Assembly (NCBI GenBank): GCA_034723315.1
Contig: JAYEOV010000017.1
Coordinates: forward strand, 6,612-70,611
Direction of reading: 5' to 3'
Length of the DNA: 64,000 nt
From: Candidatus Omnitrophota bacterium
GTDB taxonomy: Bacteria; Omnitrophota; Gorgyraeia; Tantalellales; Tantalellaceae
Below, one piece after another: positions 28,265 through 53,017 of the stretch. Numbering within the stretch: position 1 is the stretch's first letter; every line of letters begins with the position of its first letter. Position numbers and translations under genes: made by a program. The notes under the pieces were generated by a model. That model did not search any database. It worked only from the letters and a program-made list of their open reading frames with translations, and was not told where the DNA came from.

Positions 28265-28775
28265 AGGCCATTTCATAAACCCCTTTAAGTGCTGTTTGGA
28301 CCACTCCTACCAGGGGACGTAAAATTTGCTCCAGCGGCAAATTTTACTCTATGATCTCCTCGCAACCCGCCTCCGCCGAATAATTTTATGCTATCGGACT
28401 TCGGCGGGACCAAGCTTGCTCGTCGATCAAAGCCCCTGCACGGAGTAGCCCAAACAGCACTTTTCCTCAGATCTCACAGCCTGACCGCCAAATTCTGCCA
28501 AAGCATATAAGTATATACTCAATATTGCTAATGTTAATCATATAGGTTAAATATTAGTCTAATGACTGCATTTATTCTGTTATATAGCTGAATTTAGAAG
28601 TATATACTCAAAAAAATCTTTCAGAAACCTTGACTTTTATTTTTTCCCCATTAAACTTTAGAAGAGTTATCCAATTGGTACCAATACATACTAAATTAAG
28701 ACAATACATACAAAATTAAACTTCCACGGACTTACGTCCATGGCATTAGCCTGGTGCAAGCTTCGCTTGTCCTAA

Positions 28776-28803
28776 GTAGGGCACCTTTAAAGGTGCCCTA
28801 CTT
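28776..28803. repeat. 28-bp perfect palindrome AGTAGGGCACCTTTAAAGGTGCCCTACT, copy 2
   Basis: Identical to 25649-25676. The two copies bracket rimO-pgsA-pgpA and the 28.3-28.7 kb non-coding stretch. Confidence 0.85.
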
Positions 28804-29016
28804 AGGAACCCGATACACCCACGGGCTTACGCCCGCGGAACTTTAAAGGTGCATTAGAATAACCCTGTAGCTTGTTGGGCTATCTTTTATTCATTGTTTA
28901 GCGAAAAATGTTAATTTATTACATAGAGATCCTGCAATCGTTATTAGTGCAATTTGACGTTTTCAAAAATAGAACCGATTTTAGTGAATTCGATCAAGTT
29001 AATAAAAGGAGTTGAT

Positions 29017-29202
29017 ATGGTTAGTTCAGTAATGACTGTGGATGAATTAGCTGACTATCTTAAAATGAAGATCGTCACTATCTATAAGCATGCCCAGAAG
29101 GGGAAAATACCAGGGTTTAAAGTCGGCTCAAAATGGCGGTTCAAAAAAGAGACGATTGACAGGTGGATAGCAGATAAGGAAAAAATGATGTCTCCAAACT
29201 AA
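29017..29202 (+). CDS. Excisionase-family (MerR-like HTH_17) DNA-binding protein
   Basis: MTVDELADYLKMKIVTIYKHAQKGKIPGFKVGSKWRFKKETIDRWI matches the Xis/HTH_17 pattern (L...E.A.yL.vs..tiyrl...g.iP..kvGr.wrf....l..Wl). It is the first gene of an AT-rich island. Confidence 0.6.
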   Translation: MVSSVMTVDELADYLKMKIVTIYKHAQKGKIPGFKVGSKWRFKKETIDRWIADKEKMMSPN

Positions 29203-29267
29203 ATTTATCCGCCGTGAAAATGAACAAGCTCTTTTGAAATTATTGAACTACAGGGAAGAGGAAGATC

Positions 29268-30818: not shown

Positions 30819-30839
30819 TATGTCAAAATATTCAAGGGG

Positions 30840-32138: not shown

Positions 32139-34273
32139 ATTTATACGGCATTTCAAATATCTTAATTGCAATAACTAGTTCGGGTATCGCGCTATTTGTT
32201 TATGTTAAAGGCTATAGAAGTAAATTATGCAAAATATGGTCAGTTTTTGCTTTATGCGTTGCTATTTATGGATTTGGCGCCTATATGGCAGCTGGGGCAA
32301 AAAATCATGATTCTGCTTTTTTTTGGTGGCAAATTTCGTATGTCGGCGTAATAATGCTGCCTGCTTTATTTCTGCATTTTGTTTATGTTTTTCTTGATAT
32401 CAGGAAAACATTTTTAATAAAAATTGTTTATCTGGTAACACTTGTTATTTTGGCTACGGATATTTTTAATAAGCAACTATTTATTGGCAATGTAAGTTTG
32501 TTATTCAAAAATTCTGAACTATTTCAACCAGCGTGGTGGGTTTATCCTCCAGGCCCTATACATATTTTCTATACACTTTTTTTATATGCGGGGATACTTA
32601 TATATGCTCACATTAAATTAATCAGGGCCTATAAAAGATCTGAAAGATCGAAGCAGAACCAAATCAGATATTTTTTTCTTGCAACTACATTAGGTTTTAT
32701 AGGAGGAGGCACTTCTTTTTTGCCTTGTTCTGGTATAAATATCTATCCTGTTTTTAATATAACAGTACCATTGTATCCTCTAATTATGACTTACGCTATT
32801 ATTCGTCATCAGTTGATGGATATTGAAGTTATAATTAAAAAAACTATTGTCTTTGCATCATTATTTATTATTCTTTTTGGTGTTTTTGTAGGAATAACCC
32901 TTATTACTCAAGAATTGATTGCGGAAGGAAGGATTTTTGGGTTAGCGATAAGCGCTCTTATTATTATTTTTTCGGTTCGTCCGCTTGAGGATTTACTGGT
33001 AAGGGGTACCGACAAATATTTATTCCAGAAGAAATATGATTACAGGCAATTGTTGAGAACTTTTTCTGATGAGGTGCTTACAGTTCTCGATCTTGATATG
33101 CTTGTAAATCTTACGGTTAATAAACTTGTGGAGACAATGAAACTTTTCAACGCGGCTATGTTGCTTCACGATGAAAAAAATGAGGAGTACAGGATCGTGT
33201 CATCAACAGGTTTGGAAGACGTTGAGTTTAAATTAAAGGATGATGAAGAGATAATAGTATATTTGCGGAAAAACAGGCAACATATTCTGTTTGAAAGCGA
33301 GGATGGACAAATATCTTTAAGCGGTAATATTAAGAGGAAGATAAGTGGTTTACGGTCATCCATGGTCATCCCACTGTTTCATCACAAGGATATGGTGGGG
33401 ATATTGTCTCTGGGAAAGAAAAAATCAGACGAAGAGTTCACGCAGGATGATTTTGACATACTTCTGCCGCTTGCCAGAACGCTTTCCATAGCAATAGCCA
33501 ATGCCAGGCTTTTTGAGAAACTTTCTGTAGCCCAGGCACAGGCGGCACAAAGAGAAAAAATGGCCGTTATAGGGACGCTTTCGGCCGGGATCAACCACGA
33601 GATATGTAATCCCCTGGGGATAGCCAGGGGGCAATGCGAGATGTTTCTTTTAAATCTTAAAGAAGGCCTGTATGCGGGTAAGGATCCTGAAGATCTGCTC
33701 GAAAAGGCGAAACTAATAATGCAGAAGGTCATCGATGAGACTGACAGGGCCACGGTCATAACCAGAAAGCTTTCTTCGTTCGCCAAACCCGCGAAAGGAA
33801 AGCTGGAGGGCAACGTCCGGTTGAAAAAGGAAATAGAAGAAGTAGCTTCGCTTGTGGAGCACGATTTGAGGCTGGACAATATACTGATAGTCAGGGAGAT
33901 ACAGCCGGATCTGCCGTATATCGCGGCTGACCGGAAACAGGTACAGGAAATATTTTTCAATATCATAATAAATGCCGCGCAGTCGATCGTCTCCGGCGGA
34001 AAAATAACGATCCGGGCCAAAAGTGACGATAAAAAGGTCTATGTGGAGATAGAAGATACGGGTGTCGGTATCAAAAAGACCAATTTAAACCAGGTATTCA
34101 ATCCCTTTTTTACGACTAAGGACCCGGGAAAAGGTACCGGATTGGGGCTTTTTCTTGTGAAGCAGATCGTTGAAAGGAATAAAGGGCGTATCTCCGTTCA
34201 GAGCGAACAGGGAAAGGGCGCCTGTTTTCGTCTTGTGTTTAAAGCGATCGTTCCTGAAAAGGTAAAGATTTGA
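32135..34273 (+). CDS. Sensor histidine kinase with an N-terminal 7TM-type membrane domain, a GAF domain, HisKA and HATPase_c
   Basis: Seven predicted TM helices in the first ~250 aa, a GAF-like region (MVIPLFHHKDMVGILSLGKKKSDEEFTQDDFDIL), an H-box (AGINHEICNPLG), and N/G boxes (IIINAAQS; DTGVGI; GTGLGL). Confidence 0.8.
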   Translation: MNLYGISNILIAITSSGIALFVYVKGYRSKLCKIWSVFALCVAIYGFGAYMAAGAKNHDSAFFWWQISYVGVIMLPALFLHFVYVFLDIRKTFLIKIVYLVTLVILATDIFNKQLFIGNVSLLFKNSELFQPAWWVYPPGPIHIFYTLFLYAGILIYAHIKLIRAYKRSERSKQNQIRYFFLATTLGFIGGGTSFLPCSGINIYPVFNITVPLYPLIMTYAIIRHQLMDIEVIIKKTIVFASLFIILFGVFVGITLITQELIAEGRIFGLAISALIIIFSVRPLEDLLVRGTDKYLFQKKYDYRQLLRTFSDEVLTVLDLDMLVNLTVNKLVETMKLFNAAMLLHDEKNEEYRIVSSTGLEDVEFKLKDDEEIIVYLRKNRQHILFESEDGQISLSGNIKRKISGLRSSMVIPLFHHKDMVGILSLGKKKSDEEFTQDDFDILLPLARTLSIAIANARLFEKLSVAQAQAAQREKMAVIGTLSAGINHEICNPLGIARGQCEMFLLNLKEGLYAGKDPEDLLEKAKLIMQKVIDETDRATVITRKLSSFAKPAKGKLEGNVRLKKEIEEVASLVEHDLRLDNILIVREIQPDLPYIAADRKQVQEIFFNIIINAAQSIVSGGKITIRAKSDDKKVYVEIEDTGVGIKKTNLNQVFNPFFTTKDPGKGTGLGLFLVKQIVERNKGRISVQSEQGKGACFRLVFKAIVPEKVKI

Positions 34274-34287
34274 AAAGAGGTGGATTA

Positions 34288-34662
34288 ATGAAGAAACCGA
34301 ATATATTATCAATTGACGATGAGCCGAGTTTTACGGTTCTTTTAAAAGAATATTTTGAACCGAGGGGATACGATATAGATATTACGTCGGCCGGTGATAA
34401 GGGGTTAGAGCTGCTGCATGAAAAAAAATATGATGTTGTCCTGCTTGATCTGCGGATGGCAGGGCTTGACGGTGGCGAGGTTATGGCGGAGATCAACCGG
34501 TCAAACGCGGGCACAAAAATAATTTTTATAACGGCTTATAATGATTCAGGAAAGACCAGAGAACGATTGATGGGGGAAGGGGCATATGCGTTTATGGAGA
34601 AGCCGATAACAAGTCTTAAGCGCCTTGAGGAACTGGTTAATAGAGCTGTGAAGGCGGATTAA
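34288..34662 (+). CDS. Single-domain response regulator (CheY-like receiver)
   Basis: NILSIDDEPSF...DVVLLDLRMAGLDGGEV...KIIFITAYNDS (phospho-acceptor Asp in LLDLRM). Confidence 0.8.
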   Translation: MKKPNILSIDDEPSFTVLLKEYFEPRGYDIDITSAGDKGLELLHEKKYDVVLLDLRMAGLDGGEVMAEINRSNAGTKIIFITAYNDSGKTRERLMGEGAYAFMEKPITSLKRLEELVNRAVKAD

Positions 34663-34676
34663 CGGGAGGGGATAGC

Positions 34677-35051
34677 ATGTTAAGGTTGCTTATCGTTGAC
34701 GATGAGGTGGACATATGTGATTTCGTTAAGAGTTTCTTTAAGGATAGAAATTTTGAGGTTTTTACCGCTAATAACGGCAAACAGGCGGTCGACATGGTGA
34801 AATCAGAGAAGCCCGAGATTGTCCTGATGGACATAAGGATGCCTGTCATGGACGGTATGGAGGCTTTGAAGGAGATCCGCAAGCTTGACGGCGCGATTAA
34901 GGTAATAATGATCACCGCGATCGAGGATGAGAAAAAGGCGGAGGAGGCAAAGCACCATGGGGCTATTGAGTATATTACAAAACCGCTGCTGCTTGAACAG
35001 CTGGAAAGAACTGTGTTCACTATCGCGGAACAGATAAAAATGAATTCCTGA
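34677..35051 (+). CDS. Single-domain response regulator (CheY-like receiver)
   Basis: LLIVDDEVDICDF...IVLMDIRMPVMDGMEALKEIRK...KVIMITA. Confidence 0.8.
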   Translation: MLRLLIVDDEVDICDFVKSFFKDRNFEVFTANNGKQAVDMVKSEKPEIVLMDIRMPVMDGMEALKEIRKLDGAIKVIMITAIEDEKKAEEAKHHGAIEYITKPLLLEQLERTVFTIAEQIKMNS

Positions 35052-35095
35052 ATAAGGGATAGTTTCCTTGTATAGAAAAGAAAGCAGAGGAGAAT

Positions 35096-36418
35096 ATGTC
35101 ATACGATGATAACTGGTTGAGATTGCAGGACTGGATCGTTGAAAAGATGAAGAATTGCGACGGCGCTCTGATCCCCACGGGTTCGGGCAGCGTCCAGATG
35201 CGGCAGGAGCCTGAACTGGATTACCAGTATTTTCTGGAAAACGCTTCACGGACAATGATACGATTCAGGAAACCGGAACACCTTATAAGGATGATAGTGC
35301 GGGTGATCGACGAGCAGGTAAAGGTCTCCCACACGGCGATGCTGCTTTATAAAGAAGAGAGAGATTCGTTCATACTTATTGACAGTAAAGGGGGGGAAGG
35401 GGTTAAGCTCCCGATCGGGTTCATACGTATGACATTTGACAATCCGCTTATCCGCCTTTTTAACGAGCGGCATAATTTTAAGATATCGGAAATAGGCGCG
35501 ATTGAGTACAAAGAGCTTCTTGATGTCATCCAGAGGGACGAAGAAGTCAAAAAAAATAAAGACCTCGTCGAACTTATGGAACTGAGCATCAGGCAGATGG
35601 AGCTTTTAAAGGCGAATATATGTATACCGATATATTACAAAAAAGACCTGATGGGAATATTCGTGCTGGGAAAAAAACTTTCGAATATGAAATTCTCCAG
35701 ACAGGAGGTCGGGTTTTTTACGACTCTGGCTAACGATGTGGCAATGGCCATTGCAAATGCCCAGTTGATACAGGACTTGCAGGAAAAGATATTCGAGGTC
35801 CATGAGCTCTACGAAAGAGAACATCAGGTATTCATTCACACTGCTATTTCGCTGGCGGCCGCAATAGACGCCCGGGATCCTTATACCCATGGTCACACTG
35901 AGCGTGTGACAAAATACGCTCTGGCGATCGCCGAAGAGCTGGAAGACATACCCGAGGCGCAGGCTTACAGAAATTTCAGGGAAACGCTGCATATCTCGGC
36001 CCTGCTCCATGATGTCGGGAAGATCGGCGTTCCGGACAGCATACTTAAAAAGAAAGGCCAGTTGACCAGGGAGGAATACGAAATGGTCAAGGAGCATTCA
36101 TTGACCGGCGCGGCTATTCTTTATCCGATCAGGGAACTGGGGGATATCGCGAAGGAAGTGCGGGCTCATCATGAGATGTACGACGGCGGCGGGTATCCGG
36201 ATGGTTTGAAAGGGGAGGAAATACCCTTCATTGCGCGCATCATTTCGGTATCTGATACCTTTGACGCGATAACAAGCGACAGGCCTTACCGTCAGAAAAA
36301 GATGGCTGAAATCGCCGTCCAGATAATCAAGGATAATTCGGGAAGTCAGTTCGATCCTATTGTAGTGAGCGCTTTTCTTCTGGCTTACAGGAAGGGGAAG
36401 CTCGGTAATAATACGTAA
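35096..36418 (+). CDS. GAF-domain HD-GYP phosphohydrolase (putative c-di-GMP phosphodiesterase)
   Basis: HD motif (HTERVTKYALAIAEEL...LHDVGKIGVP) and the GYP motif (HHEMYDGGGYPDGLKGEEIP), preceded by a GAF-like sensor region. Confidence 0.8.
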   Translation: MSYDDNWLRLQDWIVEKMKNCDGALIPTGSGSVQMRQEPELDYQYFLENASRTMIRFRKPEHLIRMIVRVIDEQVKVSHTAMLLYKEERDSFILIDSKGGEGVKLPIGFIRMTFDNPLIRLFNERHNFKISEIGAIEYKELLDVIQRDEEVKKNKDLVELMELSIRQMELLKANICIPIYYKKDLMGIFVLGKKLSNMKFSRQEVGFFTTLANDVAMAIANAQLIQDLQEKIFEVHELYEREHQVFIHTAISLAAAIDARDPYTHGHTERVTKYALAIAEELEDIPEAQAYRNFRETLHISALLHDVGKIGVPDSILKKKGQLTREEYEMVKEHSLTGAAILYPIRELGDIAKEVRAHHEMYDGGGYPDGLKGEEIPFIARIISVSDTFDAITSDRPYRQKKMAEIAVQIIKDNSGSQFDPIVVSAFLLAYRKGKLGNNT

Positions 36419-36451
36419 GGTTGGGTTAACCGGCCCAATTTCGAATGCTCT

Positions 36452-36480
36452 ATTGACAAAAATTAATATTAGTGTAAAAT
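36452..36480 (+). promoter_or_regulatory. Candidate sigma70 promoter TTGACA-N17-TAAAAT for the metE leader
   Basis: ttgacaaaaattaatattagtgtaaaat. It predicts a 5' leader of about 225 nt before the metE ATG. Confidence 0.4.
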
Positions 36481-36663
36481 TTTAGGAAACTAATTTGAAA
36501 CAATATCTTTAACCGGATAGACAAAGGAAGTTTCCGTGAGAATCGGGACGCTGCCCAGCAACGGTGATCTTGATATGAGTTAAAAGTCAAGGAGCCCGGT
36601 CTATTGGCTATTCCGGAAAGTACCTTCTGGGGTAAGGGAAAAGATATTATGATAAGTAGTATG

Positions 36664-36688
36664 CCGACCCCAGGGGGTCGGTTTTTTT
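36664..36688 (+). terminator. Leader-embedded intrinsic terminator / attenuator hairpin (CCGACCCC..GGGGTCGG + T7) about 25 nt upstream of the metE start
   Basis: ccgaccccagggggtcggttttttt, read directly. A terminator sitting between a promoter and the start codon implies riboswitch-type or attenuation control. Confidence 0.55.
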
Positions 36689-36711
36689 ATTTGCGTAAAG
36701 GAGGAGAAAAA

Positions 36712-38913
36712 ATGAAAACATATGCATATGGCTTTCCAAGATTAGGTAAGAAAAGAGAGTTCAAATCAGCTATCGAGGATTACTGGAAAGGGAACATCAG
36801 CGAGGATAAGCTTATATCATGGATGTTCAGGCTGGAAAAGCAAAGACTTTCCGAATATAAAAAATACGTTGATTTATTCCCAAAAGGTGAGTTTACATTT
36901 TACGACAACATGTTTGATATGGCGTTAATGTTCGGCGTGTATAAGGCAAAAGGGTTGAACCGGTATTTTTCTTTTGGCAGAGGCAGGAATGCTCTTGAGA
37001 TGAAAAAGTATTTCAACACGAACTATCATTACCTCGTGCCTGTTATTAAAAAGGGGCAAAAGTTCAGGGTGGCTTGGAACAAACCACTTGTATATCATGA
37101 AAAATCTTCCCAAAAAAGAAAACCGGTTGCCATCATGGGTCCTTATACGTTTCTTAAGCTTAGCAGGGTTGAAGGGAGTTTTGATAAGACTTTCAATGAA
37201 CTTTGCGCGGCGTATAAAAAGTTGTTTGTGCAGTTTGAGAAGGCCGGAATAACTTCCGTGCACATGGAGGATCCCGCTTTTTGTCTCGACGTGACTGCTA
37301 AAGAAATAAAGGCTATTGTAAAGAATTACAAAAAGATGATTTCCCGTGATCTGGAAGTTAATCTCATAACCTATTATGATAGCGTGGATTTTCTTAAAGA
37401 ATTGTATAAGATTCCGTTCGCTGCGATCGGGCTTGATTTTGTATCCGGGGAGAGTAACATTGCCAATCTTGAGAAGACCGGCTTTCCGGAGGGGATGAAC
37501 CTGGTCTGCGGCATCGTTGACGGCCGTAATGTGGGTCGGTCCGATATAATGGCGAAGGTGCGTCTCTTGAAAAGAATAAAAAAAACCGCAAGGATCAATG
37601 ACGACAGAATATATGTCTCTAACAGCGCGCCACTCTTTCACCTGCCCATATCTCTTGATAATGAAACTAATATGAGCGCAAAACATAAAAACATTCTCAG
37701 TTTCGCTAAGGAAAGACTGTATGAACTTGGCCTTATACCCAAAGCTTATAGTGGTGATACGAAGGAAGCGGAATTATGGAGCAAAGCGGTCAAGGAAAGC
37801 CAACCTGTAAAACCGGGAAAGGTCTTCGATACGGTTTCACTTAAAGAAAGCGTTTACTCCCGAAGAAAAAAAGTTCACCAGGAGGAACTCGATCTTCCGT
37901 TCTTTCCCACCACCACGATAGGTAGTTTTCCTCAGGATAGTGAAGTGAGAAAAATGAGGCTGGATTATCGTAAAGGCAGATTATCTAAAACAAAATACAA
38001 GAGCTTCATAGGCGGTAGGATAAAAGATCTTGTGAAAAAAGAGGAAGAAATAGGACTTGATGTCCTTGTGCACGGTGAGTTCGAAAGAACGGACATGGTT
38101 GAATTCTTTGCGCAGAAACTGGATGGTTTTGTAACGACAGAAAGCGGCTGGATCATATCTTACGGAACAAGGGTCTACAGACCACCTATAGTAGTAGATA
38201 AGATCGGCAGGACAAAACCGCTTACAGCAGGGGAGATAACACATGCCGATCATTTAACGCATAAACCTGTTAAGGGTATTTTTACGGGACCGGTAACTAT
38301 ACTTGCCTGGGGTTTTTGTGTGAGGACAGATCCAATATACAAAGTAGCCTTTGAACTTGCGAAAGCGCTGAACGAAGAGGCAAAAGACCTTGTCAAGAAA
38401 GGTATAAAAATAATACAGGTGGATGAACCCGCGATAAAGGAATTTTCCCCTATAAAGAAAAGAATGAAGAAGGCATATTTTGGCTGGGCAATAAGAAGCT
38501 TTAACATGGTGACTAAGCTTCCCGAAAGGGTTCAAATCCATACTCACATGTGTTATTCGGAGTTTGCCGAGATCATTGATTGGATCCTGAAGATGAATTT
38601 CGATGTTATAACAATAGAAACAGCGAGAGAGAAGGGTAAAGTCCTTGAAACTTTTTTCAGAGCTGGATTTAAACGTGACATAGGTCCCGGGTTATGGGAT
38701 ATTCACTCAAAATATCCCGCTGAGGAAAGGACAATAAAAACAATATTAAATAAAAGCATAAAGTTTTTCGGCCCGGAACATATCTGGATGAACCCGGATT
38801 GCGGGCTGAAGACCAGGAATTGGGAAGAAACAGAATTATCGCTTGAACGCATTGTAAAAATAGCGAAACAATACAGAAAAAGGTTACTAAAGGGGTCAAG
38901 TCTTAAAATTTAA
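36712..38913 (+). CDS. metE: Cobalamin-independent methionine synthase MetE; the last 6 codons (SSLKI*) are supplied by the left terminal inverted repeat of the downstream IS element
   Basis: About 734 aa with a two-barrel architecture. The C-terminal catalytic barrel carries the Zn ligands (H...C.E...C; IHTHMCYSE, DCGLKTR). The start is the ATG at 36712 after a GGAGGAG SD. The ORF-track start at 36604 would read through the leader terminator. Confidence 0.85.
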   Translation: MKTYAYGFPRLGKKREFKSAIEDYWKGNISEDKLISWMFRLEKQRLSEYKKYVDLFPKGEFTFYDNMFDMALMFGVYKAKGLNRYFSFGRGRNALEMKKYFNTNYHYLVPVIKKGQKFRVAWNKPLVYHEKSSQKRKPVAIMGPYTFLKLSRVEGSFDKTFNELCAAYKKLFVQFEKAGITSVHMEDPAFCLDVTAKEIKAIVKNYKKMISRDLEVNLITYYDSVDFLKELYKIPFAAIGLDFVSGESNIANLEKTGFPEGMNLVCGIVDGRNVGRSDIMAKVRLLKRIKKTARINDDRIYVSNSAPLFHLPISLDNETNMSAKHKNILSFAKERLYELGLIPKAYSGDTKEAELWSKAVKESQPVKPGKVFDTVSLKESVYSRRKKVHQEELDLPFFPTTTIGSFPQDSEVRKMRLDYRKGRLSKTKYKSFIGGRIKDLVKKEEEIGLDVLVHGEFERTDMVEFFAQKLDGFVTTESGWIISYGTRVYRPPIVVDKIGRTKPLTAGEITHADHLTHKPVKGIFTGPVTILAWGFCVRTDPIYKVAFELAKALNEEAKDLVKKGIKIIQVDEPAIKEFSPIKKRMKKAYFGWAIRSFNMVTKLPERVQIHTHMCYSEFAEIIDWILKMNFDVITIETAREKGKVLETFFRAGFKRDIGPGLWDIHSKYPAEERTIKTILNKSIKFFGPEHIWMNPDCGLKTRNWEETELSLERIVKIAKQYRKRLLKGSSLKI

Positions 38914-39951
38914 CTTTAGCTTGCGTGTTTAAGTATTAAATGGTATGATGTTTGATCATGGCACGACCTTTACGAATTGAATATCCGGGCGCCTGGTATC
39001 ACGTGATGAACCGCGGCAGGCGAAGAGAGCAGATTTTTTTTGATGAAAAAGATCGAGTTCTTTTTGTGGATATATTAGGAGATTGCACTAGACTTTTTAA
39101 TCTGGAAATACACGCCTATTCGTTGATGCCAAACCACTATCATTTATTAGTACGCACGCCTATCGCGAACCTTTCAAGAGCAATGAGACACCTGAACGGG
39201 GTTTATACACAAAAGATCAATTATCGTCATAAGTATGAAGGCAGTCTTTTTAAGGGAAGGTTTAAATCAATAGTCATAGAAGAAGAATCATACTTTCTTG
39301 AACTATTAAGGTATATTCACAGGAATCCATTAAAGGCGAAGATCGTGGAAAAGATCATTGAGCATAAATGGACAAGCCACAGGGCATATATGATAAAAAA
39401 AGAGCGGCCCGAATGGCTGAAAGTAAATACAGCTTTAATAAAATTCAGCCAGCATGAGAATGCGGCAAAAAGGAAACTGGACGCGTTTGTGCGGGAAAAA
39501 GTACCGGTGGAAATAGAACGTATATTAGATGGAATAAAGTGGCCGGCGATACTGGGCGGAAAGCAGTTTCAGGAAAAGATCAAAGAAAAAATAAAGGGAG
39601 AAAAGATCGACATCAGGGAAGTGCCGCAACATAAAGAGATCTGTAGTAGATTAACCGCGAAGGATGTTGCTGAGGTGCTGGTGAGAGAGCAAAAGAAGTG
39701 GGATGAAAATGTTTTCAGCGGACGGAAGAAGAGGATTTATACCGGGAAGAGACGTGCGTTTGTGTACGTGTGCCGGGAATATCTATATGCGGTGAACAGA
39801 GATATATGCGAAGCTCTGGGAGATATTTCTTCTGCCGCCGTATCGATTTTGTATACGCAAGCCGTGGAAAAGGTGAAAAAGAAAGAGGATTTGTACGAAG
39901 AAGTAAAGGGGATCGTTGATTTGCTAAAGTTAAATTTTAAGACTTGACCCC
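38892..39951 (+). mobile_element. IS200/IS605-like element (about 1060 bp) with perfect 29-bp terminal inverted repeats GGGGTCAAGTCTTAAAATTTAACTTTAGC (38892-38920; reverse complement at 39923-39951), carrying one Y1 transposase gene
   Basis: Both TIRs read directly. The left TIR overlaps the metE stop. The right TIR overlaps the transposase stop and, on the other strand, the stop of the XRE-cupin gene. Confidence 0.75.
38958..39947 (+). CDS. IS200/IS605-family (COG1943-like) HUH Y1 transposase with a C-terminal extension
   Basis: HUH motif SLMPNHYHLLV and a catalytic Tyr region YIHRNPLKAKIV. 330 aa and AT-rich. Confidence 0.75.
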   Translation: MARPLRIEYPGAWYHVMNRGRRREQIFFDEKDRVLFVDILGDCTRLFNLEIHAYSLMPNHYHLLVRTPIANLSRAMRHLNGVYTQKINYRHKYEGSLFKGRFKSIVIEEESYFLELLRYIHRNPLKAKIVEKIIEHKWTSHRAYMIKKERPEWLKVNTALIKFSQHENAAKRKLDAFVREKVPVEIERILDGIKWPAILGGKQFQEKIKEKIKGEKIDIREVPQHKEICSRLTAKDVAEVLVREQKKWDENVFSGRKKRIYTGKRRAFVYVCREYLYAVNRDICEALGDISSAAVSILYTQAVEKVKKKEDLYEEVKGIVDLLKLNFKT

Positions 39952-40503
39952 CCTAATTGCAGGCGGTGCGATAATGCATATCGCCTGGGCCTCGATTTTA
40001 GCTTTGTTTTTAAAGGTATGGGGCAGGGAGGCGTCAAAGTACAGGCTGTCGCCGTTTTTTAACGTGTAGGTTTTATCGCCTACAGCAGCTTCGAGGTTCC
40101 CCGAGATCACGTATATGAATTTTTCCACCCCTGTCTTGTTCTGTTCTTTCTGTGTCTGGCCTCCGCCGGAGATCTTCATCATAAGCGGCATGATCTTTTT
40201 ATCAAAAGTTTTCGTGACAAGCAGCTCGTACTTTGCCTTACGCGTGTGGATGAAATGTTCCGTCCGTTTATCCTGTGAGACCACCTCCACGGTCTTGGAT
40301 TTGTCCTCGATCTCGCGGTAAAGTTCCGTGATAGAAGTGTTAAGGGCTTTACAAATGCGGTTGTGGGAATCGAGGGTGCCGGTCATCTTGTCGTTTTCCA
40401 TGCGGCTCAGCGTGGCAAGGGCTACTCCGCTTTTTCCAGAAAGTTCTTCCAGCGTCATTTCACGTTCTTTACGTAACTGGCGGATCCTTTTCCCTATTTT
40501 CAT
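39937..40503 (-). CDS. XRE-family HTH transcriptional regulator with a C-terminal cupin domain
   Basis: N-terminal HTH (IRQLRKEREMTLEELSGKSGVALATLSRMEN) and C-terminal cupin_2 (GNLEAAVGDKTYTLKNGDSLYFDASLPHTFKN). It is the only convincing minus-strand gene in the window. Confidence 0.8.
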   Translation of the reverse strand: MKIGKRIRQLRKEREMTLEELSGKSGVALATLSRMENDKMTGTLDSHNRICKALNTSITELYREIEDKSKTVEVVSQDKRTEHFIHTRKAKYELLVTKTFDKKIMPLMMKISGGGQTQKEQNKTGVEKFIYVISGNLEAAVGDKTYTLKNGDSLYFDASLPHTFKNKAKIEAQAICIIAPPAIRGVKS

Positions 40504-48054: not shown

Positions 48055-48315
48055 ATGATAAAACTTGATATCTCCATGGCGATCTTTCTATACCTGCTGT
48101 TTACGGCGGTGTTGATCCTCATAGTGTGGTCTTTTTTCGATTTCGGCACAAAACTGAGGACTTTCAGTTCGGACGAGAAATATATCTGGCATTGTAACAT
48201 TTGCGCGCTTACGTATATCGACAGCCGGCATGATGAAGTCTCGAGATGTCCGAGATGCGGCAGCTATAACCAGAGACTGACAAAAAAAGATTTTCCGAAA
48301 GGCAGAGAGACATAG
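48055..48315 (+). CDS. Small membrane protein with a C-terminal zinc ribbon (CxxC...CxxC)
   Basis: N-terminal TM helix (IFLYLLFTAVLILIVWSFF) and HCNICALTY...CPRCGSYNQ. Confidence 0.45.
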   Translation: MIKLDISMAIFLYLLFTAVLILIVWSFFDFGTKLRTFSSDEKYIWHCNICALTYIDSRHDEVSRCPRCGSYNQRLTKKDFPKGRET

Positions 48316-50104: not shown

Positions 50105-50180
50105 GGGGCAGTAGCTCAGCTGGGAGAGCATCACGTTCGCAACGTGGGGGTCGTGGGTTCGAATCCCATCTGCTCCACCA
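50105..50180 (+). tRNA. tRNA-Ala (anticodon CGC)
   Basis: Manual fold. Acceptor stem GGGGCAG/CTGCTCC with the G3:U70 alanine identity pair, D arm GCTC-AGCTGGGA-GAGC, anticodon stem TCACG/CGTGG with loop TTCGCAA (anticodon CGC), T arm GTGGG-TTCGAAT-CCCAT, discriminator A, and encoded CCA. Confidence 0.9.
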
Positions 50181-50183
50181 TGA

Positions 50184-50267
50184 AAATAGGGGGACAGCGC
50201 CCCTATTTTTCCCCCTATTATTTTTTCTTTTTTCTCCGAAAAATAGAGGCGCTGTCCCCCCATTTTT
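50184..50267. terminator. Two inverted copies of the GGGGACAGCGCCCCTATTT palindromic unit (50184-50211 and 50239-50267) downstream of tRNA-Ala; the first has a T-run and probably acts as a terminator
   Basis: aaaatagggggacagcgcccctattttt ... aaaaatagaggcgctgtccccccattttt. It is the same unit family as the lnt terminator at 10842-10890. The small ORFs called here on both strands translate the repeat and are not genes. Confidence 0.65.
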
Positions 50268-50321
50268 CCCATTTTCTCCTATTTCCCAAATGAGAGTCCA
50301 TATACCGATCCTGGAGGAGGG

Positions 50322-50840
50322 ATGAAAAAATTTATTTTTATCTTGGTCGTATTTACGGTTTCCTTGAACAGCATAATTAGTCCCGCTTCGGCAAAACCCG
50401 AAACGATCCGCGTCCTGGTTGAAGTCGTGGGCGATCAACAATGGGAAGTTGAGGATTACGTCAAAACCATTTTGAGTTCGCTGGAGGATGTGGAAGTCGT
50501 GGAGGATTATCCAAGTGTGTATATTCACATAATAACCCGCAGGCTTGTAAGTACCAGGGGCAAAAGGCTTGGGTACGTGATAGCGTCGGCAAGCGCGCAG
50601 GTCTGGGAGGTTTTTCTGGAAGGGGGTTATCCTTTCCATTGCAACGATTATCATGGTTTATGGCTTGAGGTAGGGCCGGACCTCCGCGACCTGTCCCTGA
50701 AATGTGTTGCGGCCGTTAACGCGGGCGTCTTTGAAAAGATCCGGGAACTTAACAGGCTGGGAACGGAGCAGGAAATGCCGCTGGATTCCGCCGAGCATAC
50801 CGTTGTTGAGGGGGCTGAAACGGACGTTTTGCCGGAATGA
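50322..50840 (+). CDS. Secreted hypothetical protein
   Basis: Signal peptide MKKFIFILVVFTVSLNSIISPASA. No recognisable domain. Confidence 0.5.
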   Translation: MKKFIFILVVFTVSLNSIISPASAKPETIRVLVEVVGDQQWEVEDYVKTILSSLEDVEVVEDYPSVYIHIITRRLVSTRGKRLGYVIASASAQVWEVFLEGGYPFHCNDYHGLWLEVGPDLRDLSLKCVAAVNAGVFEKIRELNRLGTEQEMPLDSAEHTVVEGAETDVLPE

Positions 50841-50879
50841 GCCCTTATTCAGGACGAGATATGAGATGCTGAAAAAATC

Positions 50880-51074
50880 ATGAGTGAATATATTTGTCCG
50901 CATTGCGGCAAACCGATATACGACGATGAGGCGCTTCTGTGCGTATATTGCGGGGAGAACCTGGAGCGCGGCGTCGGGACCCTCGGTAAGATCAAATATT
51001 CCACGCACTGGATGATCATTGCGGCTGTTGTGGTGCTGGTTTTGATCGCGTTCGTTATACTGGTAAGCAAATAA
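50880..51074 (+). CDS. Small zinc-ribbon protein with a C-terminal TM anchor
   Basis: CPHCGKPIYDDEALLCVYCGE then WMIIAAVVVLVLIAFVILV. Confidence 0.45.
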   Translation: MSEYICPHCGKPIYDDEALLCVYCGENLERGVGTLGKIKYSTHWMIIAAVVVLVLIAFVILVSK

Positions 51075-51096
51075 GGGATAAGGAAGGTGTTCGGAG

Positions 51097-51480
51097 ATGA
51101 AAAAGTGGATCATTAGTATCGTTGTCCTGGTCCTGTTGGGCCTGGGCGCTTTTGCGGGGTATATGTTCTATAGCGAAAAACAGGTCATGAATATGGAAAT
51201 AGGAGATGTGGATCTTTCTCGCGTTCCGGACGGCGAGTATAAGGGGAAGTGCGATTATATGATCTTTACCTGCAGAGCGGAAGTCTCGGTGCGGAACCAT
51301 CGTATAACGGGTATCAAGCTTTTTGAGGACAGGGATAGTAAATGGGTTGAACAGGCAAAAGGAGTTGCCCGGGACGTGCTCCGCGAACAGTCTTTGAAAG
51401 TAGATACGGTAACCGGCGCCACGATCACCAGTAAGGCTTTTCTAAAAGCCATAAGGAATGCTTTGACAAAGACTAAATGA
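51097..51480 (+). CDS. Membrane-anchored FMN-binding domain protein (FMN_bind; NqrC/RnfG-type covalent flavinylation motif)
   Basis: N-terminal TM anchor, then DTVTGATITSKAFLKAIRNAL. The [ST]GAT[ST] threonine motif is the site of ApbE-mediated covalent FMN attachment in NqrC/RnfG-type domains. Confidence 0.7.
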   Translation: MKKWIISIVVLVLLGLGAFAGYMFYSEKQVMNMEIGDVDLSRVPDGEYKGKCDYMIFTCRAEVSVRNHRITGIKLFEDRDSKWVEQAKGVARDVLREQSLKVDTVTGATITSKAFLKAIRNALTKTK

Positions 51481-51487
51481 CCTTTTT

Positions 51488-53017
51488 TTGCTATCTGTTA
51501 TAACGATGGGGATATTGATGTTAAAACGGGTCTTATCAGCAATATTTGTTGTTTTCTTTCTGCTGGCGGGCATCCATGCGGAAGCAAAATATGCCGATCT
51601 TGCGGGATCGTGGTACTCTGATTCGCCTGTCAGGTTGAGGTCAGAGATCGAAGGGTATTTGCGGGATGCCCGGGTGGGCCGGATAGACGGCGAGGTCATA
51701 GGCGCCATAGTCCCGCATGCCGGTTTGAGGTTCTCCGGACCGGTAGCGGGGTACACGTATAAAGCGTTGATGGAAGCGAACCCTGACAAGGTCATTCTTG
51801 TCGGGTTCACCCACAGGAAATATTTTGCCGACAGCATATCCGTTTTTACCGACGAGGATTTTATCACGCCGCTGGGAAAGGCCCCGACAGATATGGGCCT
51901 GACCAAAAAGATCCTTTCTTATCACGAGAACATGAAGGATATTCCGGAAGCCTTCATCGGGGAGAACTCTATCGAGGTCGAGATCCCTTTTATACAGGTG
52001 GCCTTGAAGGATGCGCGTCTCGTATTGATCGCGCTTTGCGATCAGAGCAAGGAGAACTGCAGGATCCTTGCGGACGCGCTTCATGACGTTCTGCGCGACG
52101 AAAAGAACTTTGTGATATTGGCCAGCACGGATATGTCCCATCACCTCCCTTACGATGTAGCGAAGAAGCTGGATACCGGGACCATAGAAACGGTGAAACT
52201 GTTCGATCCGGAATTGTTTTACGAAAAAAGCGCGGAACAGCAGCCCCATGAGCACATGTGCGGTATGGGGGCAGTTTATTCCGTGATGACGGCGTGCAAA
52301 CGGCTCGGGGCTGATCAGGTGGAGATATTGAAATACGCGAATTCAGGTGACACTTCGGGAATGAAAAGCAGGGTTGTAGGATACTTGAGCGCGGTATTCA
52401 TAAAGAGCCGGGGAAAAGCGTCGAGCGGACGCGGGATAGATCAAAATGTCAAGGAGGAACAGCATATGTTTAACCGGACACAGAAGGAAAAGCTCCTGAA
52501 AATGGCCAGGGACACTATACATCATTATCTTGAAACAGGGAAACGTCTCGAGGTGGAAGTCGATGATGAAACGCTCAAGCAGGATATGGGGGCTTTTGTT
52601 ACCCTGCACAAACAGGGACAATTAAGAGGTTGCATAGGGCATATGGCAGCTACAGGCCCCCTGTATCTCACCGTCAGAGATATGGCTATCTCATCGGCAA
52701 CCGAGGACTGGAGATTCCCGCCCGTCAAGCTCGGCGATCTCGATGATATCGATATCGAGATATCGGCATTATCGCCGATGAGGAAGATAGATGATTATAA
52801 TGAAATAGAGATGGGCAAGCACGGGGTAATGGTGCGAATGGGGCGCAGAAGCGGCGTGTATCTGCCGCAGGTAGCCGACGAGACCGGCTGGGACAGGGAG
52901 CAGTTCATGAACAGCCTTTGCGCACACAAGGCCGGCATTCCCGCTGATGCCTGGAAGAAGGGGGAGTGCGAGATATACGTGTTTACCGCCGAGGTCTTCG
53001 GTGAAAAGGAAATTTAA
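51488..53017 (+). CDS. Fusion of a MEMO1-family domain (AmmeMemoRadiSam system protein B-like) and an AMMECR1 domain (protein A-like), preceded by a predicted signal peptide / TM anchor
   Basis: N-terminal hydrophobic segment LKRVLSAIFVVFFLLAGIHA. The MEMO-like region starts AGSWYSD...IVPHAGLRFSGPVAGYTY...DMSHH. The C-terminal AMMECR1 region has GAFVTLHKQGQLRGCIGH...GVYLPQVADETGWDREQFMNSLCAHKAGIP. Confidence 0.75.
   Translation: MLSVITMGILMLKRVLSAIFVVFFLLAGIHAEAKYADLAGSWYSDSPVRLRSEIEGYLRDARVGRIDGEVIGAIVPHAGLRFSGPVAGYTYKALMEANPDKVILVGFTHRKYFADSISVFTDEDFITPLGKAPTDMGLTKKILSYHENMKDIPEAFIGENSIEVEIPFIQVALKDARLVLIALCDQSKENCRILADALHDVLRDEKNFVILASTDMSHHLPYDVAKKLDTGTIETVKLFDPELFYEKSAEQQPHEHMCGMGAVYSVMTACKRLGADQVEILKYANSGDTSGMKSRVVGYLSAVFIKSRGKASSGRGIDQNVKEEQHMFNRTQKEKLLKMARDTIHHYLETGKRLEVEVDDETLKQDMGAFVTLHKQGQLRGCIGHMAATGPLYLTVRDMAISSATEDWRFPPVKLGDLDDIDIEISALSPMRKIDDYNEIEMGKHGVMVRMGRRSGVYLPQVADETGWDREQFMNSLCAHKAGIPADAWKKGECEIYVFTAEVFGEKEI

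What the first reader, a model, noticed from the sequence alone, without database searches (positions are those of the whole stretch)
50322..53017. Cluster of exported proteins: a secreted protein, a zinc-ribbon tail-anchored protein, a covalent-FMN-type FMN-binding protein and a signal-peptide-bearing MEMO1+AMMECR1 fusion, with no radical SAM partner
MEMO1-like and AMMECR1-like proteins are normally cytoplasmic. In the described AmmeMemoRadiSam system they are separate proteins encoded alongside a dedicated radical SAM enzyme. Here the two domains are fused (B-like then A-like). The fusion has an N-terminal hydrophobic signal/anchor directly preceding the MEMO AGSWY start, and there is no cognate radical SAM gene adjacent. 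The nearest radical SAM gene is the housekeeping mtaB. Immediately upstream is a membrane-anchored FMN_bind domain protein carrying the NqrC/RnfG-type flavinylation motif TGATIT. Such domains are extracytoplasmic and are flavinylated by ApbE. Together this suggests an uncharacterised extracytoplasmic flavin-dependent modification or redox module.
Basis: inference. Interest (0 to 1): 0.65.

Follow-up and report, generated by a model that had tools for sequence, protein, structure and literature searches.

The report
Exported Memo–AMMECR1 fusion enzyme
This Omnitrophota gene encodes a two-domain enzyme of unknown chemistry, related to the human proteins MEMO1 and AMMECR1, that carries a secretion signal. 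In related genomes its radical-SAM partner carries a folded-protein (Tat) export signal, so the whole system probably works outside the cytoplasm, which is unexpected for this kind of enzyme.

Summary
Four same-strand genes at 50322-53017 encode a signal-peptide protein with no known family, a zinc-ribbon tail-anchored protein, a membrane-anchored FMN_bind protein with a DxxTGAT flavinylation motif, and a Memo+AMMECR1 fusion. The fusion's best start is ATG 51518. It has a Sec-type signal peptide, and both domains keep their catalytic motifs.

The signal peptide is not a start-codon artefact. It is present in 113 of 120 Omnitrophota homologues. It is also present in at least 108 of the best 150 cluster representatives and 104 of 115 fusions from other phyla, often as a lipoprotein signal.

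Two parts of the interpretation need correction:
- **"No radical SAM partner" is only local.** Relatives encode the cognate TIGR04337 enzyme next to the fusion or elsewhere in the genome. That enzyme carries a twin-arginine signal in 96 of 120 relatives, and also in Armatimonadota, Eisenbacteria and KSB1.
- **The FMN_bind link is weak.** It is found upstream in only 3 of 80 related loci.

The locus is best read as the B-A subunit of an exported variant of the AmmeMemoRadiSam system that I could not find described. The three small upstream genes are lineage-specific accessories. Substrate and chemistry remain unknown.

The parts
50105..50180 (+). tRNA-Ala(CGC). It marks the upstream edge of the variable slot that holds the small genes.
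   Evidence: ARAGORN. The same tRNA precedes p172 or the zinc-ribbon gene in relatives: its translated footprint is seen in ORFs of L002, L006 and L014.
50183..50266 (.). 29-nt inverted repeat (93% complementary, 26-nt loop) between the tRNA and p172. It is a probable bidirectional terminator or insulator.
50322..50840 (+). p172: exported protein of unknown family, with a signal peptide (residues 1-24, ASA|KP). Restricted to the window's Omnitrophota subclade.
   Evidence: No Pfam, NCBIfam or PDB match. Homologues lie upstream of the fusion in 7 of 80 loci. The alignment has invariant H69, W114 and C128. The single-sequence AlphaFold model was unusable, pLDDT 36.
50880..51074 (+). 64-aa zinc-ribbon tail-anchored protein. 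The CPHC...CVYC ribbon is predicted cytoplasmic and is followed by one C-terminal TM helix.
   Evidence: Zn_ribbon_3 above cut-off. Found upstream of the fusion in 11 of 80 loci. Fused in frame to the N-terminus of the Memo-AMMECR1 protein, in place of its signal peptide, in L014/P0043, P0031 and P0042.
51097..51480 (+). 127-aa membrane-anchored FMN_bind protein. The N-terminal TM helix spans residues 4-22. The flavinylation-type motif D103-TVTGA-T109 lies at 51403-51423.
   Evidence: PF04205 at 43.2 bits (cut-off 22), plus weak RnfG matches. Aligns to the covalent-FMN domain 8p2b across the SGAT site. Found upstream of the fusion in only L003, L010 and L025.
51518..51586 (+). Sec-type signal peptide of the fusion: MLKR, a hydrophobic core, then A21-E-A23|K24.
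   Evidence: Read from the sequence. Hydropathy 3.16, with controls. Conserved in character, not in sequence, in 113 of 120 homologues. Modelled as a lone helix, residues 2-18.
51593..52396 (+). Memo-like (LigB-superfamily) domain, corresponding to AmmeMemoRadiSam protein B. The metal-site residues H67, H99, D205, H208 and C248 are invariant.
   Evidence: PF01875 and TIGR04336. Invariant columns in the 24-sequence alignment. Alignment to human MEMO1 at PHAG, GxxH and SxD. The model matches MEMO1 structures 3bcz, 7l5c and 7kq8 with target-normalised TM about 0.8.
52397..52495 (+). Flexible inter-domain linker.
   Evidence: pLDDT below 50 for residues 300-315. pTM of 0.59 indicates that the relative domain orientation is undefined.
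52496..52999 (+). AMMECR1 domain, corresponding to AmmeMemoRadiSam protein A. The RGCIG motif (R370-G374) and the DxRF motif (D397, R399, F400) are invariant.
   Evidence: PF01871 and TIGR04335. Invariant columns. PDB matches PH0010 1vaj (E 2.8e-34), 1zq7 and 1wsc. Motif definitions come from Balaji and Aravind 2007, PMC2034487.
53084..55190 (+). rsmE and mtaB. These are conserved downstream neighbours within Omnitrophota only and are not considered part of the system.
   Evidence: NCBIfam equivalog-level hits. Synteny in about 50 of 80 Omnitrophota loci but not in other phyla.

Best explanation
Gene 51518-53017 encodes the fused B (Memo-like metal enzyme) and A (AMMECR1, catalytic-cysteine cleft) components of an AmmeMemoRadiSam system. 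The protein is exported by the Sec pathway and works on the outer face of the cytoplasmic membrane or in the periplasm.

It belongs to a large exported branch of this system that I could not find described. The branch occurs throughout Omnitrophota and in Armatimonadota, Eisenbacteria, KSB1, Verrucomicrobia and Elusimicrobiota. In many members the third component, the PFL-activase-like radical SAM enzyme TIGR04337, carries a twin-arginine (Tat) signal, meaning it would be exported folded with its Fe-S clusters.

In the window's lineage the radical SAM gene has been separated from the fusion gene. It is expected elsewhere in the genome, paired with a polytopic SpeE-like membrane protein.

The three small upstream genes are lineage-specific envelope accessories:
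- the zinc-ribbon protein is a membrane tether or partner of the enzyme, and is fused to it in some relatives;
- the FMN_bind protein is a possible extracytoplasmic electron relay;
- p172 has unknown function.

Shown here: domain identity, conserved active-site motifs, conservation of the export signals, and gene-context patterns.

Inferred: actual export, partnership with the radical SAM enzyme in this particular genome, any role for the flavoprotein, and an envelope-associated (non-RNA) substrate.
For: Identity:
- TIGR04336 and TIGR04335 both score above their cut-offs.
- The model (mean pLDDT 87.6) matches MEMO1 and PH0010-type structures.
- The H/H/D/H/C metal-site residues and the RGCxG and DxRF motifs are invariant.

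Export of the fusion:
- It has a positive n-region, a hydrophobic core and an AxA site, with hydropathy controls.
- The signal is present in 113 of 120 Omnitrophota homologues, in at least 108 of the best 150 50%-identity representatives, and in 104 of 115 relatives of P0254 from other phyla, 33 of them with a lipobox.
- One apparent exception, P0486, proved to be a miscalled start with a lipoprotein signal upstream.
- Zinc ribbon + one TM + Memo-AMMECR1 fusions fix the topology as N-in, C-out.

The partner enzyme:
- TIGR04337 enzymes score 362-399 bits against a cut-off of 220, and the family model starts only at residue 42-73.
- They carry S/T-RR-x-F-x-K signals in 96 of 120 relatives of the L044 enzyme, and in the Armatimonadota, Eisenbacteria and KSB1 operons.
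- In the Armatimonadota and Eisenbacteria operons, a DUF362 protein between the two genes also has a Tat signal.
- All 14 full-length radical SAM enzymes beside a fusion in Omnitrophota loci, and all 4 from other phyla, have an N-terminal signal or anchor.

Linkage:
- The radical SAM gene lies directly upstream of the fusion in L066, L069, L072 and L076, which branch at the base of the Omnitrophota in an NJ tree. L069 and L072 keep window-type flanks, so the window gene is an orthologue.
- MAG JAFGFD01 has a window-type locus (L075) and a separate radical SAM + SpeE-like pair (L085).
- The same pair occurs without a fusion within 10 kb in L081 and L082.
- A DsbD_2 membrane reductant gene recurs beside the system in Omnitrophota class-B loci and in Verrucomicrobia. 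This fits a need to keep exported catalytic cysteines reduced.
Against: - No experimental localisation exists, and no SignalP, TatP or DeepTMHMM was available. Signal calls are rule-based.
- The window holds no radical SAM partner, ApbE, DsbD_2 or SpeE-like gene. The rest of this genome could not be read: the window's proteins are not in the contig index.
- A radical SAM enzyme outside the cytoplasm has no known source of SAM or of a low-potential reductant.
- 13 of the 14 radical SAM enzymes in GTDB class-B Omnitrophota loci have hydrophobic N-termini without RR. Sec export of an Fe-S enzyme is not expected.
- The FMN_bind, zinc-ribbon and p172 genes are each confined to a small subclade.
- Within Omnitrophota the gene sits next to two RNA-modification genes, rsmE and mtaB. 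This would fit the older RNA-base-modification proposal for AMMECR1 (PMC2034487).
Confidence: 0.6

Rival explanations
1. The exported Memo-AMMECR1 fusion works without any radical SAM enzyme, as a periplasmic metal-dependent (Cu/Fe) redox or modification enzyme. It is fed electrons by the adjacent covalently flavinylated FMN_bind protein, and the zinc-ribbon protein and p172 are further subunits.
For: - No TIGR04337 gene is present in 64 kb.
- The four genes are tightly spaced on the same strand, with gaps of 22-39 nt and no intrinsic terminator between them.
- FMN_bind has an intact DxxTGAT motif and a membrane anchor.
- Eukaryotic MEMO1 and AMMECR1 function without the radical SAM enzyme (established knowledge). 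MEMO1 binds Cu and Fe (PDB 7l5c and 7kq8).
- A different exported flavoprotein, a SagB-type nitroreductase, occupies the same upstream region in 6 other Omnitrophota loci.
- CutA-like and copper-resistance genes occur near system genes in relatives.
Against: - FMN_bind is upstream of the fusion in only 3 of 80 related loci. In other relatives that slot holds unrelated genes, including ArsC-like, GH130-like, Tpx-like, DHH, STAS and NifS/NifU-like genes.
- Orthologues in basal Omnitrophota lineages are adjacent to the radical SAM gene.
- A MAG with a window-type locus carries the radical SAM gene elsewhere.
- No ApbE is present in the window.
Confidence: 0.2
2. The hydrophobic N-terminus is only a membrane tether, and the catalytic domains face the cytoplasm. 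There the enzyme acts on RNA or nucleotides together with the co-transcribed RsmE and MtaB, in line with the older RNA-base-modification proposal for AMMECR1.
For: - The order fusion, rsmE, mtaB is conserved in about 50 of 80 Omnitrophota loci.
- Balaji and Aravind 2007 proposed an RNA base modification role for AMMECR1.
- MtaB is itself a radical SAM enzyme.
- SAM and reductants are available only in the cytoplasm.
Against: - The positive charges lie on the N-terminal side of the helix, and an AxA cleavage motif follows it.
- Fusions with an N-terminal zinc ribbon and a single TM put the enzyme on the side opposite the ribbon.
- Lipobox variants occur in other phyla.
- The partner radical SAM and DUF362 proteins carry canonical Tat signals.
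- The rsmE/mtaB adjacency is absent outside Omnitrophota.
Confidence: 0.08
3. The signal peptide is a gene-start artefact, and the true protein begins downstream of the hydrophobic segment.
For: The longest ORF starts at a TTG with no ribosome-binding site.
Against: - No start codon lies between the hydrophobic segment and the invariant ADLAGSWY motif. The next in-frame start would delete invariant residues.
- The hydrophobic segment is kept in frame in more than 100 homologues.
- Where a caller omitted it (P0486), it is present in frame upstream.
Confidence: 0.02

Closest known systems
AmmeMemoRadiSam system (NCBIfam TIGR04335 protein A, TIGR04336 protein B, TIGR04337 radical SAM enzyme). Defined by comparative genomics; function unknown.
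   Same: Both domains of the window protein score above the curated cut-offs of models A and B. Relatives encode bona fide TIGR04337 enzymes next to the fusion. AMMECR1-dioxygenase gene fusions and the radical SAM neighbourhood were already noted in 2007 (PMC2034487).
   Different: - B and A are fused here, and the fusion carries a Sec or lipoprotein signal.
- The radical SAM partner in this branch carries a Tat or other N-terminal signal that lies outside the family model.
- DsbD_2, a SpeE-like membrane protein and Tat-DUF362 recur as extra partners.
- In this window the radical SAM gene is not adjacent.
- I found no description of an exported form in the searchable literature. The most relevant paper, Burroughs et al. 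2019 (JBC 294:10211), could not be read.
Human MEMO1 (PDB 3bcz, 7l5c Cu-bound, 7kq8 Fe-bound)
   Same: Same fold, target-normalised TM about 0.8. The His/His/Asp/His/Cys metal-site positions are conserved.
   Different: MEMO1 is a cytosolic single-domain protein with only about 18-20% identity. It has no signal peptide and no fused AMMECR1 domain.
AMMECR1 / PH0010 family (PDB 1vaj, 1zq7, 1wsc)
   Same: 34-40% identity over the C-terminal domain. The RGCxG and DxRF motifs are conserved.
   Different: The solved archaeal proteins are stand-alone proteins with no signal peptide. Their proposed RNA-modification role is hard to reconcile with an exported enzyme.
ApbE-flavinylated FMN_bind domains (NqrC/RnfG type; extracytosolic flavinylation systems surveyed by Meheust et al. 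2021, PMC8238504)
   Same: The 127-aa neighbour has the domain, the membrane anchor and the DxxTGAT motif.
   Different: It is a minimal single-domain protein that is not part of an Rnf or Nqr operon. Its RnfG scores are far below the cut-offs. Memo, AMMECR1 and radical SAM are not mentioned in that survey's main text. No ApbE is nearby.
Glycyl-radical-enzyme activases (PflA, NrdG, YjjW-type)
   Same: These are the nearest characterised relatives of the TIGR04337 partner (secondary hits). They consume one SAM to install a stable protein radical.
   Different: They are cytoplasmic. No glycyl-radical substrate is known for this system. The comparison applies to the partner enzyme in relatives, not to a gene in this window.

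Membership tests
AmmeMemoRadiSam system | Protein B (Memo-like) matches TIGR04336 above its cut-off | tested here: met
   239 bits against a cut-off of 26, residues 36-304 of the 509-aa ORF
AmmeMemoRadiSam system | Protein A (AMMECR1-like) matches TIGR04335 above its cut-off | tested here: met
   177.9 bits against a cut-off of 99, residues 335-504
AmmeMemoRadiSam system | A dedicated TIGR04337 radical SAM enzyme is encoded with A and B | tested here: not met
   Absent from the 64 kb window. The rest of the genome could not be read. It is present beside orthologues in L066, L069, L072, L076 and the class-B loci, and on another contig of a MAG with a window-type locus.
AmmeMemoRadiSam system | Catalytic motifs are intact: the Memo H/H/D/H/C site and the AMMECR1 RGChG and DxRa motifs | tested here: met
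   H67, H99, D205, H208, C248, R370-G371-C372-x-G374 and D397-x-R399-F400 are invariant in 24 sequences. Alignment to MEMO1. Motif definitions in PMC2034487.
Sec-exported (type I signal peptide) proteins | A positively charged n-region, a hydrophobic h-region of 10-15 residues, and small residues at positions -3 and -1 | tested here: met
   MLKR / VLSAIFVVFFLLAG / IHAEA|K. Hydropathy control on 50 ORFs. Conserved in 113 of 120 homologues. The test is rule-based only; SignalP was not available.
Sec-exported (type I signal peptide) proteins | Experimental export or cleavage | not testable with these tools
   Needs reporter fusions or N-terminal proteomics.
ApbE-flavinylated FMN_bind proteins | PF04205 domain above its gathering score | tested here: met
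   43.2 bits against 22
ApbE-flavinylated FMN_bind proteins | Flavinylation motif D-x-x-[ST]-G-A-[ST] in an extracytoplasmic domain | tested here: met
   D103-TVTGA-T109 follows an N-terminal TM helix and aligns to the SGAT site of 8p2b.
ApbE-flavinylated FMN_bind proteins | ApbE flavin transferase encoded in the genome | tested here: inconclusive
   No PF02424 hit among the window's ORFs.
RnfG / NqrC subunits | Full-length match to the RnfG or NqrC equivalog models, within an Rnf or Nqr operon | tested here: not met
   TIGR01947 scores 24.7 bits against a cut-off of 102, covering the C-terminal 44 residues only. No Rnf or Nqr genes are nearby.

The most novel reading that the evidence does not exclude
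The complete AmmeMemoRadiSam triad operates outside the cytoplasm in many bacterial phyla. A PFL-activase-like radical SAM enzyme is exported folded through Tat. It might be pre-loaded with SAM for a single activating turnover, or supplied through the SpeE-like membrane protein that always accompanies it. It would then act with a Sec-exported Memo-AMMECR1 enzyme on a cell-envelope substrate. That would be the first extracytoplasmic radical-SAM chemistry. It would also argue that the conserved job of MEMO1 and AMMECR1 is not RNA or nucleotide modification.
Probability: 0.35. Interest if true: 0.9.

Novelty: new variant of a known kind. Interest (0 to 1): 0.68.

Why it matters
MEMO1 (cell motility, metal binding) and AMMECR1 (X-linked contiguous-gene syndrome) are conserved from archaea to humans, yet their reactions are unknown. 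The bacterial three-gene AmmeMemoRadiSam system is the main genomic clue to that chemistry.

A large, multi-phylum branch of the system carries export signals on all components. This limits the possible substrates of that branch to molecules reachable from the periplasmic side, such as lipids, isoprenoids, envelope polymers or exported proteins. It argues against the older RNA-modification idea, at least for this branch.

It also predicts something radical-SAM specialists would not expect: a Tat-exported radical SAM enzyme. The prediction can be tested directly with topology reporters and with Tat-dependence and SAM-occupancy assays.

For genome annotation, many of these genes are called with truncated starts that hide the signal peptide.

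Tried and rejected
- **Start-codon artefact:** rejected.
- **Reading the rest of the window's contig** to look for the radical SAM gene, ApbE and Tat genes: failed. MurJ, a 155-aa ORF and P0001 are not on record in the contig index.
- **p172 function:** no Pfam, NCBIfam or PDB sequence or profile match. The single-sequence AlphaFold model had pLDDT 36 and was discarded, so no fold search was run on it.
- **FMN_bind as a conserved partner:** iterative HMM searches over 80 loci found it in only 3.
- **Conserved unknown partner in the upstream slot:** the ORFs there in other relatives are unrelated housekeeping or stress genes.
- **BLAST cluster 'c18':** first read as 12 nitroreductases. It turned out to merge 6 SagB-type nitroreductases with 7 CutA-like proteins through one long ORF in L077.
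- **Topology of the SpeE-like membrane protein:** hydropathy and positive-inside counts were inconclusive.
- **Taxonomy of distant exported fusions via cluster look-up:** A third homologue search was used instead.
- **Co-variation test** (does a signal-less fusion pair with a signal-less radical SAM enzyme?): the chosen 'signal-less' protein, P0486, actually has a lipoprotein signal upstream of its called start and has no radical SAM neighbour, so the test gave no answer.
- **Literature:** no paper describing an exported AmmeMemoRadiSam system or a Tat-signal radical SAM enzyme was found. Burroughs et al. 2019 is not held, so prior mention there cannot be excluded.
- **ApbE search** with a 153-aa fragment from L087 found nothing in the window or the loci. 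This is a weak test.

Full report
**1. What is in the window**

The region 50105-53017 carries, all on the + strand:
- tRNA-Ala(CGC) at 50105-50180;
- a 29-nt inverted repeat at 50183-50266;
- four closely spaced genes, with gaps of 39 and 22 nt, and 37 nt to ATG 51518.

- **p172 (50322-50840)** has a clear signal peptide (…SPASA|KP) and no match in Pfam, NCBIfam or the PDB, even with an 8-sequence profile.
- **The 64-aa protein (50880-51074)** is a zinc ribbon (CPHC…CVYC, Zn_ribbon_3 above its cut-off) followed by a single C-terminal hydrophobic helix.
- **The 127-aa protein (51097-51480)** has an N-terminal helix and an FMN_bind domain (43.2 bits, cut-off 22). Its motif D103-TVTGA-T109 aligns with the SGAT flavinylation site of a solved covalently flavinylated domain, 8p2b.
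- **The large ORF** is Memo plus AMMECR1. Both the AmmeMemoRadiSam B (TIGR04336) and A (TIGR04335) models score above their cut-offs.

An AlphaFold model built on 24 homologues (mean pLDDT 87.6) shows a lone N-terminal helix, two well-folded domains and a disordered linker. The domains match MEMO1 (3bcz, 7l5c, 7kq8; target-normalised TM about 0.8) and the archaeal AMMECR1 homologues 1vaj, 1zq7 and 1wsc.

The MEMO1-type metal-site residues H67, H99, D205, H208 and C248 are invariant in the alignment (numbering from ATG 51518). So are the AMMECR1 RGCxG and DxRF motifs defined by Balaji and Aravind in 2007. Both halves therefore look catalytically intact.

**2. Is the signal peptide real?**

The longest ORF starts at TTG 51488, which has no ribosome-binding site. 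ATG 51518 has GGGGA 8-9 nt upstream and is the start of the identical NCBI protein from a Candidatus Omnitrophota MAG. Either start includes MLKR-VLSAIFVVFFLLAG-IHAEA|KY.

No start codon lies between the hydrophobic core and the invariant ADLAGSWY motif.

Among the 120 best homologues (49-71% identity, all about 490-520 aa), 113 have the same layout: a positive n-region, a hydrophobic core, A-x-A, then K-x-ADLAGxWY. Most of the other seven begin inside the signal, which points to miscalled starts.

As a control, I scanned 50 ORFs of the window. A hydrophobic N-terminus appeared only in known membrane or exported proteins and in p172, FMN_bind and the fusion. It did not appear in RsmE, MtaB, DnaG, RpoD, PNPase and the other cytoplasmic enzymes.

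Topology is also fixed independently. In three proteins from separate assemblies (P0031, P0042, P0043 = L014), the zinc-ribbon protein is fused in frame to the enzyme. Its single TM helix takes the place of the signal peptide. A folded four-cysteine ribbon on one side of a single helix places the Memo-AMMECR1 domains on the other side.

**3. How far does this extend?**

A profile search of 1.84 billion cluster representatives gave 25,020 hits. The best 150 are mostly only 35-43% identical to the window protein. Of these, at least 108 carry a signal peptide and many have a lipobox.

A search seeded with one of these (P0254) returned fusions named from Latescibacteria, Eisenbacteria, Armatimonadota, KSB1, Verrucomicrobia, Elusimicrobiota and Edwardsbacteria. 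Of these, 104 of 115 have a signal and 33 have a lipobox.

One apparently signal-less member (P0486) has MNKFKLLFIFSIFSIQAC… in frame just upstream of its called start. The true fraction is therefore higher than these counts.

Export is thus the normal state of the fused B-A form, not an Omnitrophota peculiarity.

**4. The missing radical SAM enzyme**

The 64 kb window holds no TIGR04337 gene, ApbE, DsbD-like gene or SpeE-like membrane protein.

I compared 80 related loci from GTDB species representatives, all Omnitrophota. They fall into two context types.

- **Window-type loci (about 50)** share a phylum-wide housekeeping order: ExbB, ExbD, TonB-like, p86, wHTH, p108, HDAC, a variable slot, the fusion, RsmE, MtaB, CvpA, NIF3-like, DnaG.
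- **The other type** reads: fusion, DsbD_2, a roughly 705-aa polytopic membrane protein with a spermidine-synthase-like domain, and a radical SAM enzyme. That enzyme is a bona fide TIGR04337 member (362-366 bits, cut-off 220).

In L066, L069, L072 and L076 the radical SAM gene lies directly upstream of the fusion. L069 and L072 also keep the TonB-like and RsmE-MtaB flanks. These loci branch at the base of the Omnitrophota in an NJ tree. The window gene is therefore an orthologue whose partner has moved, not a different protein.

MAG JAFGFD01 shows the split arrangement directly. It has a window-type locus on contig 29 (L075), and the radical SAM gene plus the SpeE-like gene on contig 5 (L085).

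The same pair occurs without a fusion within 10 kb on a 1.55-Mb contig and a 530-kb contig.

**5. The partner is also predicted to be exported**

The TIGR04337 model aligns only from residue 42-73 of these enzymes.

The preceding extension is a canonical twin-arginine signal in 96 of 120 relatives of the L044 enzyme. Examples are …KISRRDFCKLC… and …NRREFLKR…, each followed by a hydrophobic stretch and an A-x-A site.

Operons from other phyla show the same pattern.
- **Armatimonadota (complete genome CP070648.1) and Eisenbacteria:** lipoprotein-type fusion, then DUF362, then radical SAM. Both DUF362 (SRRRFLG, SRRDFLRK) and the radical SAM enzyme (TRRQFMRG, NRRGFLRR) carry Tat signals.
- **KSB1:** nitroreductase, Tat-signal radical SAM, fusion, STAS, polyprenyl synthase, ApbE.
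- **Verrucomicrobia:** DsbD_2, a 103-aa membrane protein, radical SAM with a hydrophobic N-terminus, then a lipoprotein-type fusion.

Every full-length radical SAM enzyme found beside a fusion (14 in Omnitrophota, 4 elsewhere) has an N-terminal signal or anchor.

I found no paper describing an exported AmmeMemoRadiSam system or a Tat-signal radical SAM enzyme. The flavinylation survey does not mention these families. Burroughs et al. 2019, the most relevant analysis of Memo contexts, could not be read, so prior mention there cannot be excluded.

**6. The small upstream genes**

Iterative HMM searches over the 80 loci gave these counts immediately upstream of the fusion:

| Gene | Loci |
|---|---|
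| FMN_bind | 3 (L003, L010, L025) |
| zinc-ribbon protein | 11 (plus the in-frame fusions) |
| p172 | 7 |

All of these loci belong to the window's nearest subclade. In each, the genes sit in the slot between the tRNA-Ala and the fusion.

Other window-type loci fill that slot with unrelated genes.

The zinc-ribbon link is therefore supported by the gene fusions. The FMN_bind link rests on adjacency in a few close relatives, plus three weaker hints:
- a signal-peptide SagB-type nitroreductase occupies the same region in six other Omnitrophota loci;
- the KSB1 operon carries a nitroreductase, with ApbE nearby;
- an exported radical SAM enzyme would need an extracytoplasmic electron donor (inference).

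**7. Most likely mechanism**

*Shown.* The window encodes an intact Memo-AMMECR1 enzyme with a conserved Sec signal. Its orthologues are genetically linked to a TIGR04337 enzyme that carries export signals.

*Inferred.* The mature enzyme sits in the periplasm, or is tethered to the outer face of the membrane through the zinc-ribbon protein. It works with the exported radical SAM enzyme, which is encoded elsewhere in this genome, on an envelope-accessible substrate. DsbD_2 in relatives could keep the catalytic cysteines (C248, C372) reduced. FMN_bind here, and DUF362 or a nitroreductase elsewhere, could pass electrons.

TIGR04337 is most similar to the glycyl-radical activases, which use one SAM to install a stable protein radical. 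One way round the SAM-supply problem is therefore export of a SAM-loaded enzyme for a single activating turnover. This is speculation.

The chemistry and the substrate remain unknown.

**8. Rivals**

- **Cytoplasm-facing, membrane-tethered enzyme acting with RsmE and MtaB on RNA, about 0.08.** The charge distribution, the AxA and lipobox motifs, the zinc-ribbon fusions and the Tat signals on the partners all contradict it.
- **Start-site artefact, about 0.02.** Excluded.

**9. Verdict**

- It is a new variant of a known but uncharacterised system.
- The surprising element is the predicted export of the whole triad, including a radical SAM enzyme. That element rests on sequence signals in many phyla and is directly testable.

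Noticed in passing
window 50183-50266: A 29-nt inverted repeat (93% complementary, 26-nt spacer) lies immediately after tRNA-Ala and before the p172 gene. It is likely a bidirectional terminator or insulator.
   Followed up: partly
window ~28000-40000: A low-GC stretch (0.36-0.45, against about 0.50 elsewhere) carries an aldehyde dehydrogenase, a GMC oxidoreductase, a 7TM histidine kinase with a receiver protein, an HD-domain protein, MetE and an IS200-like Y1 transposase ORF (38952-39947). It may be an acquired island.
   Followed up: no
window 4635-5306 and 5422-5919: The RF2 ORF lacks the first about 120 positions of the PCRF profile, as expected for the prfB programmed frameshift. A second IS200-like Y1 transposase gene lies just downstream.
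   Followed up: no
window 48055-48315: p86 is a small protein with an N-terminal TM helix and a CxxC…CPRC zinc ribbon. It is conserved next to ExbB, ExbD and a TonB-like protein in about 45 related Omnitrophota loci. It is a second membrane zinc-ribbon protein in this neighbourhood, and its function is unknown.
   Followed up: partly
L081 10001-13443; L082 10001-13481; L084 10706-14431; L085 660-4176; class-B loci such as L052 and L060: The TIGR04337 radical SAM gene is almost always paired with a 700-810-aa polytopic membrane protein that holds a central spermidine-synthase-like (SAM/dcSAM-fold) domain. I could not determine which side of the membrane that domain faces.
   Followed up: partly
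L083 9670-10791; L084 9632-10699: DUF362 proteins with canonical Tat signals are encoded between the exported fusion and the Tat-signal radical SAM enzyme in Armatimonadota and Eisenbacteria.
   Followed up: partly
L051, L056, L059, L063, L069, L072, L077 (upstream of the fusion); L082 1647-19517: CutA-like genes lie beside the fusion in seven Omnitrophota loci. Copper-resistance genes (CusABC-like, CsoR-like, CopA, YHS, cupredoxin) surround the radical SAM and SpeE-like pair in L082. In L085 the pair sits among oxidative-stress genes. This may connect to the reported Cu/Fe binding of MEMO1.
   Followed up: no
L030, L035, L042, L050, L067, L077: SagB-type nitroreductases with N-terminal signal peptides lie upstream of the fusion. 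An exported member of this FMN enzyme family would itself be unusual.
   Followed up: partly
L030 and L047 (both MAG JADHYN01): One MAG carries both a window-type fusion locus and a radical-SAM-linked fusion locus. This could reflect true paralogues or a mixed bin.
   Followed up: no
L089 4450-4540; P0038, P0063, P0072, P0089, P0403, P0457: Gene callers often start these fusions inside or after the signal peptide, so database entries under-report the export signal.
   Followed up: partly
L024, L037, L043: Giant ORFs (2372-3291 aa) flank the fusion gene in some Omnitrophota loci.
   Followed up: no
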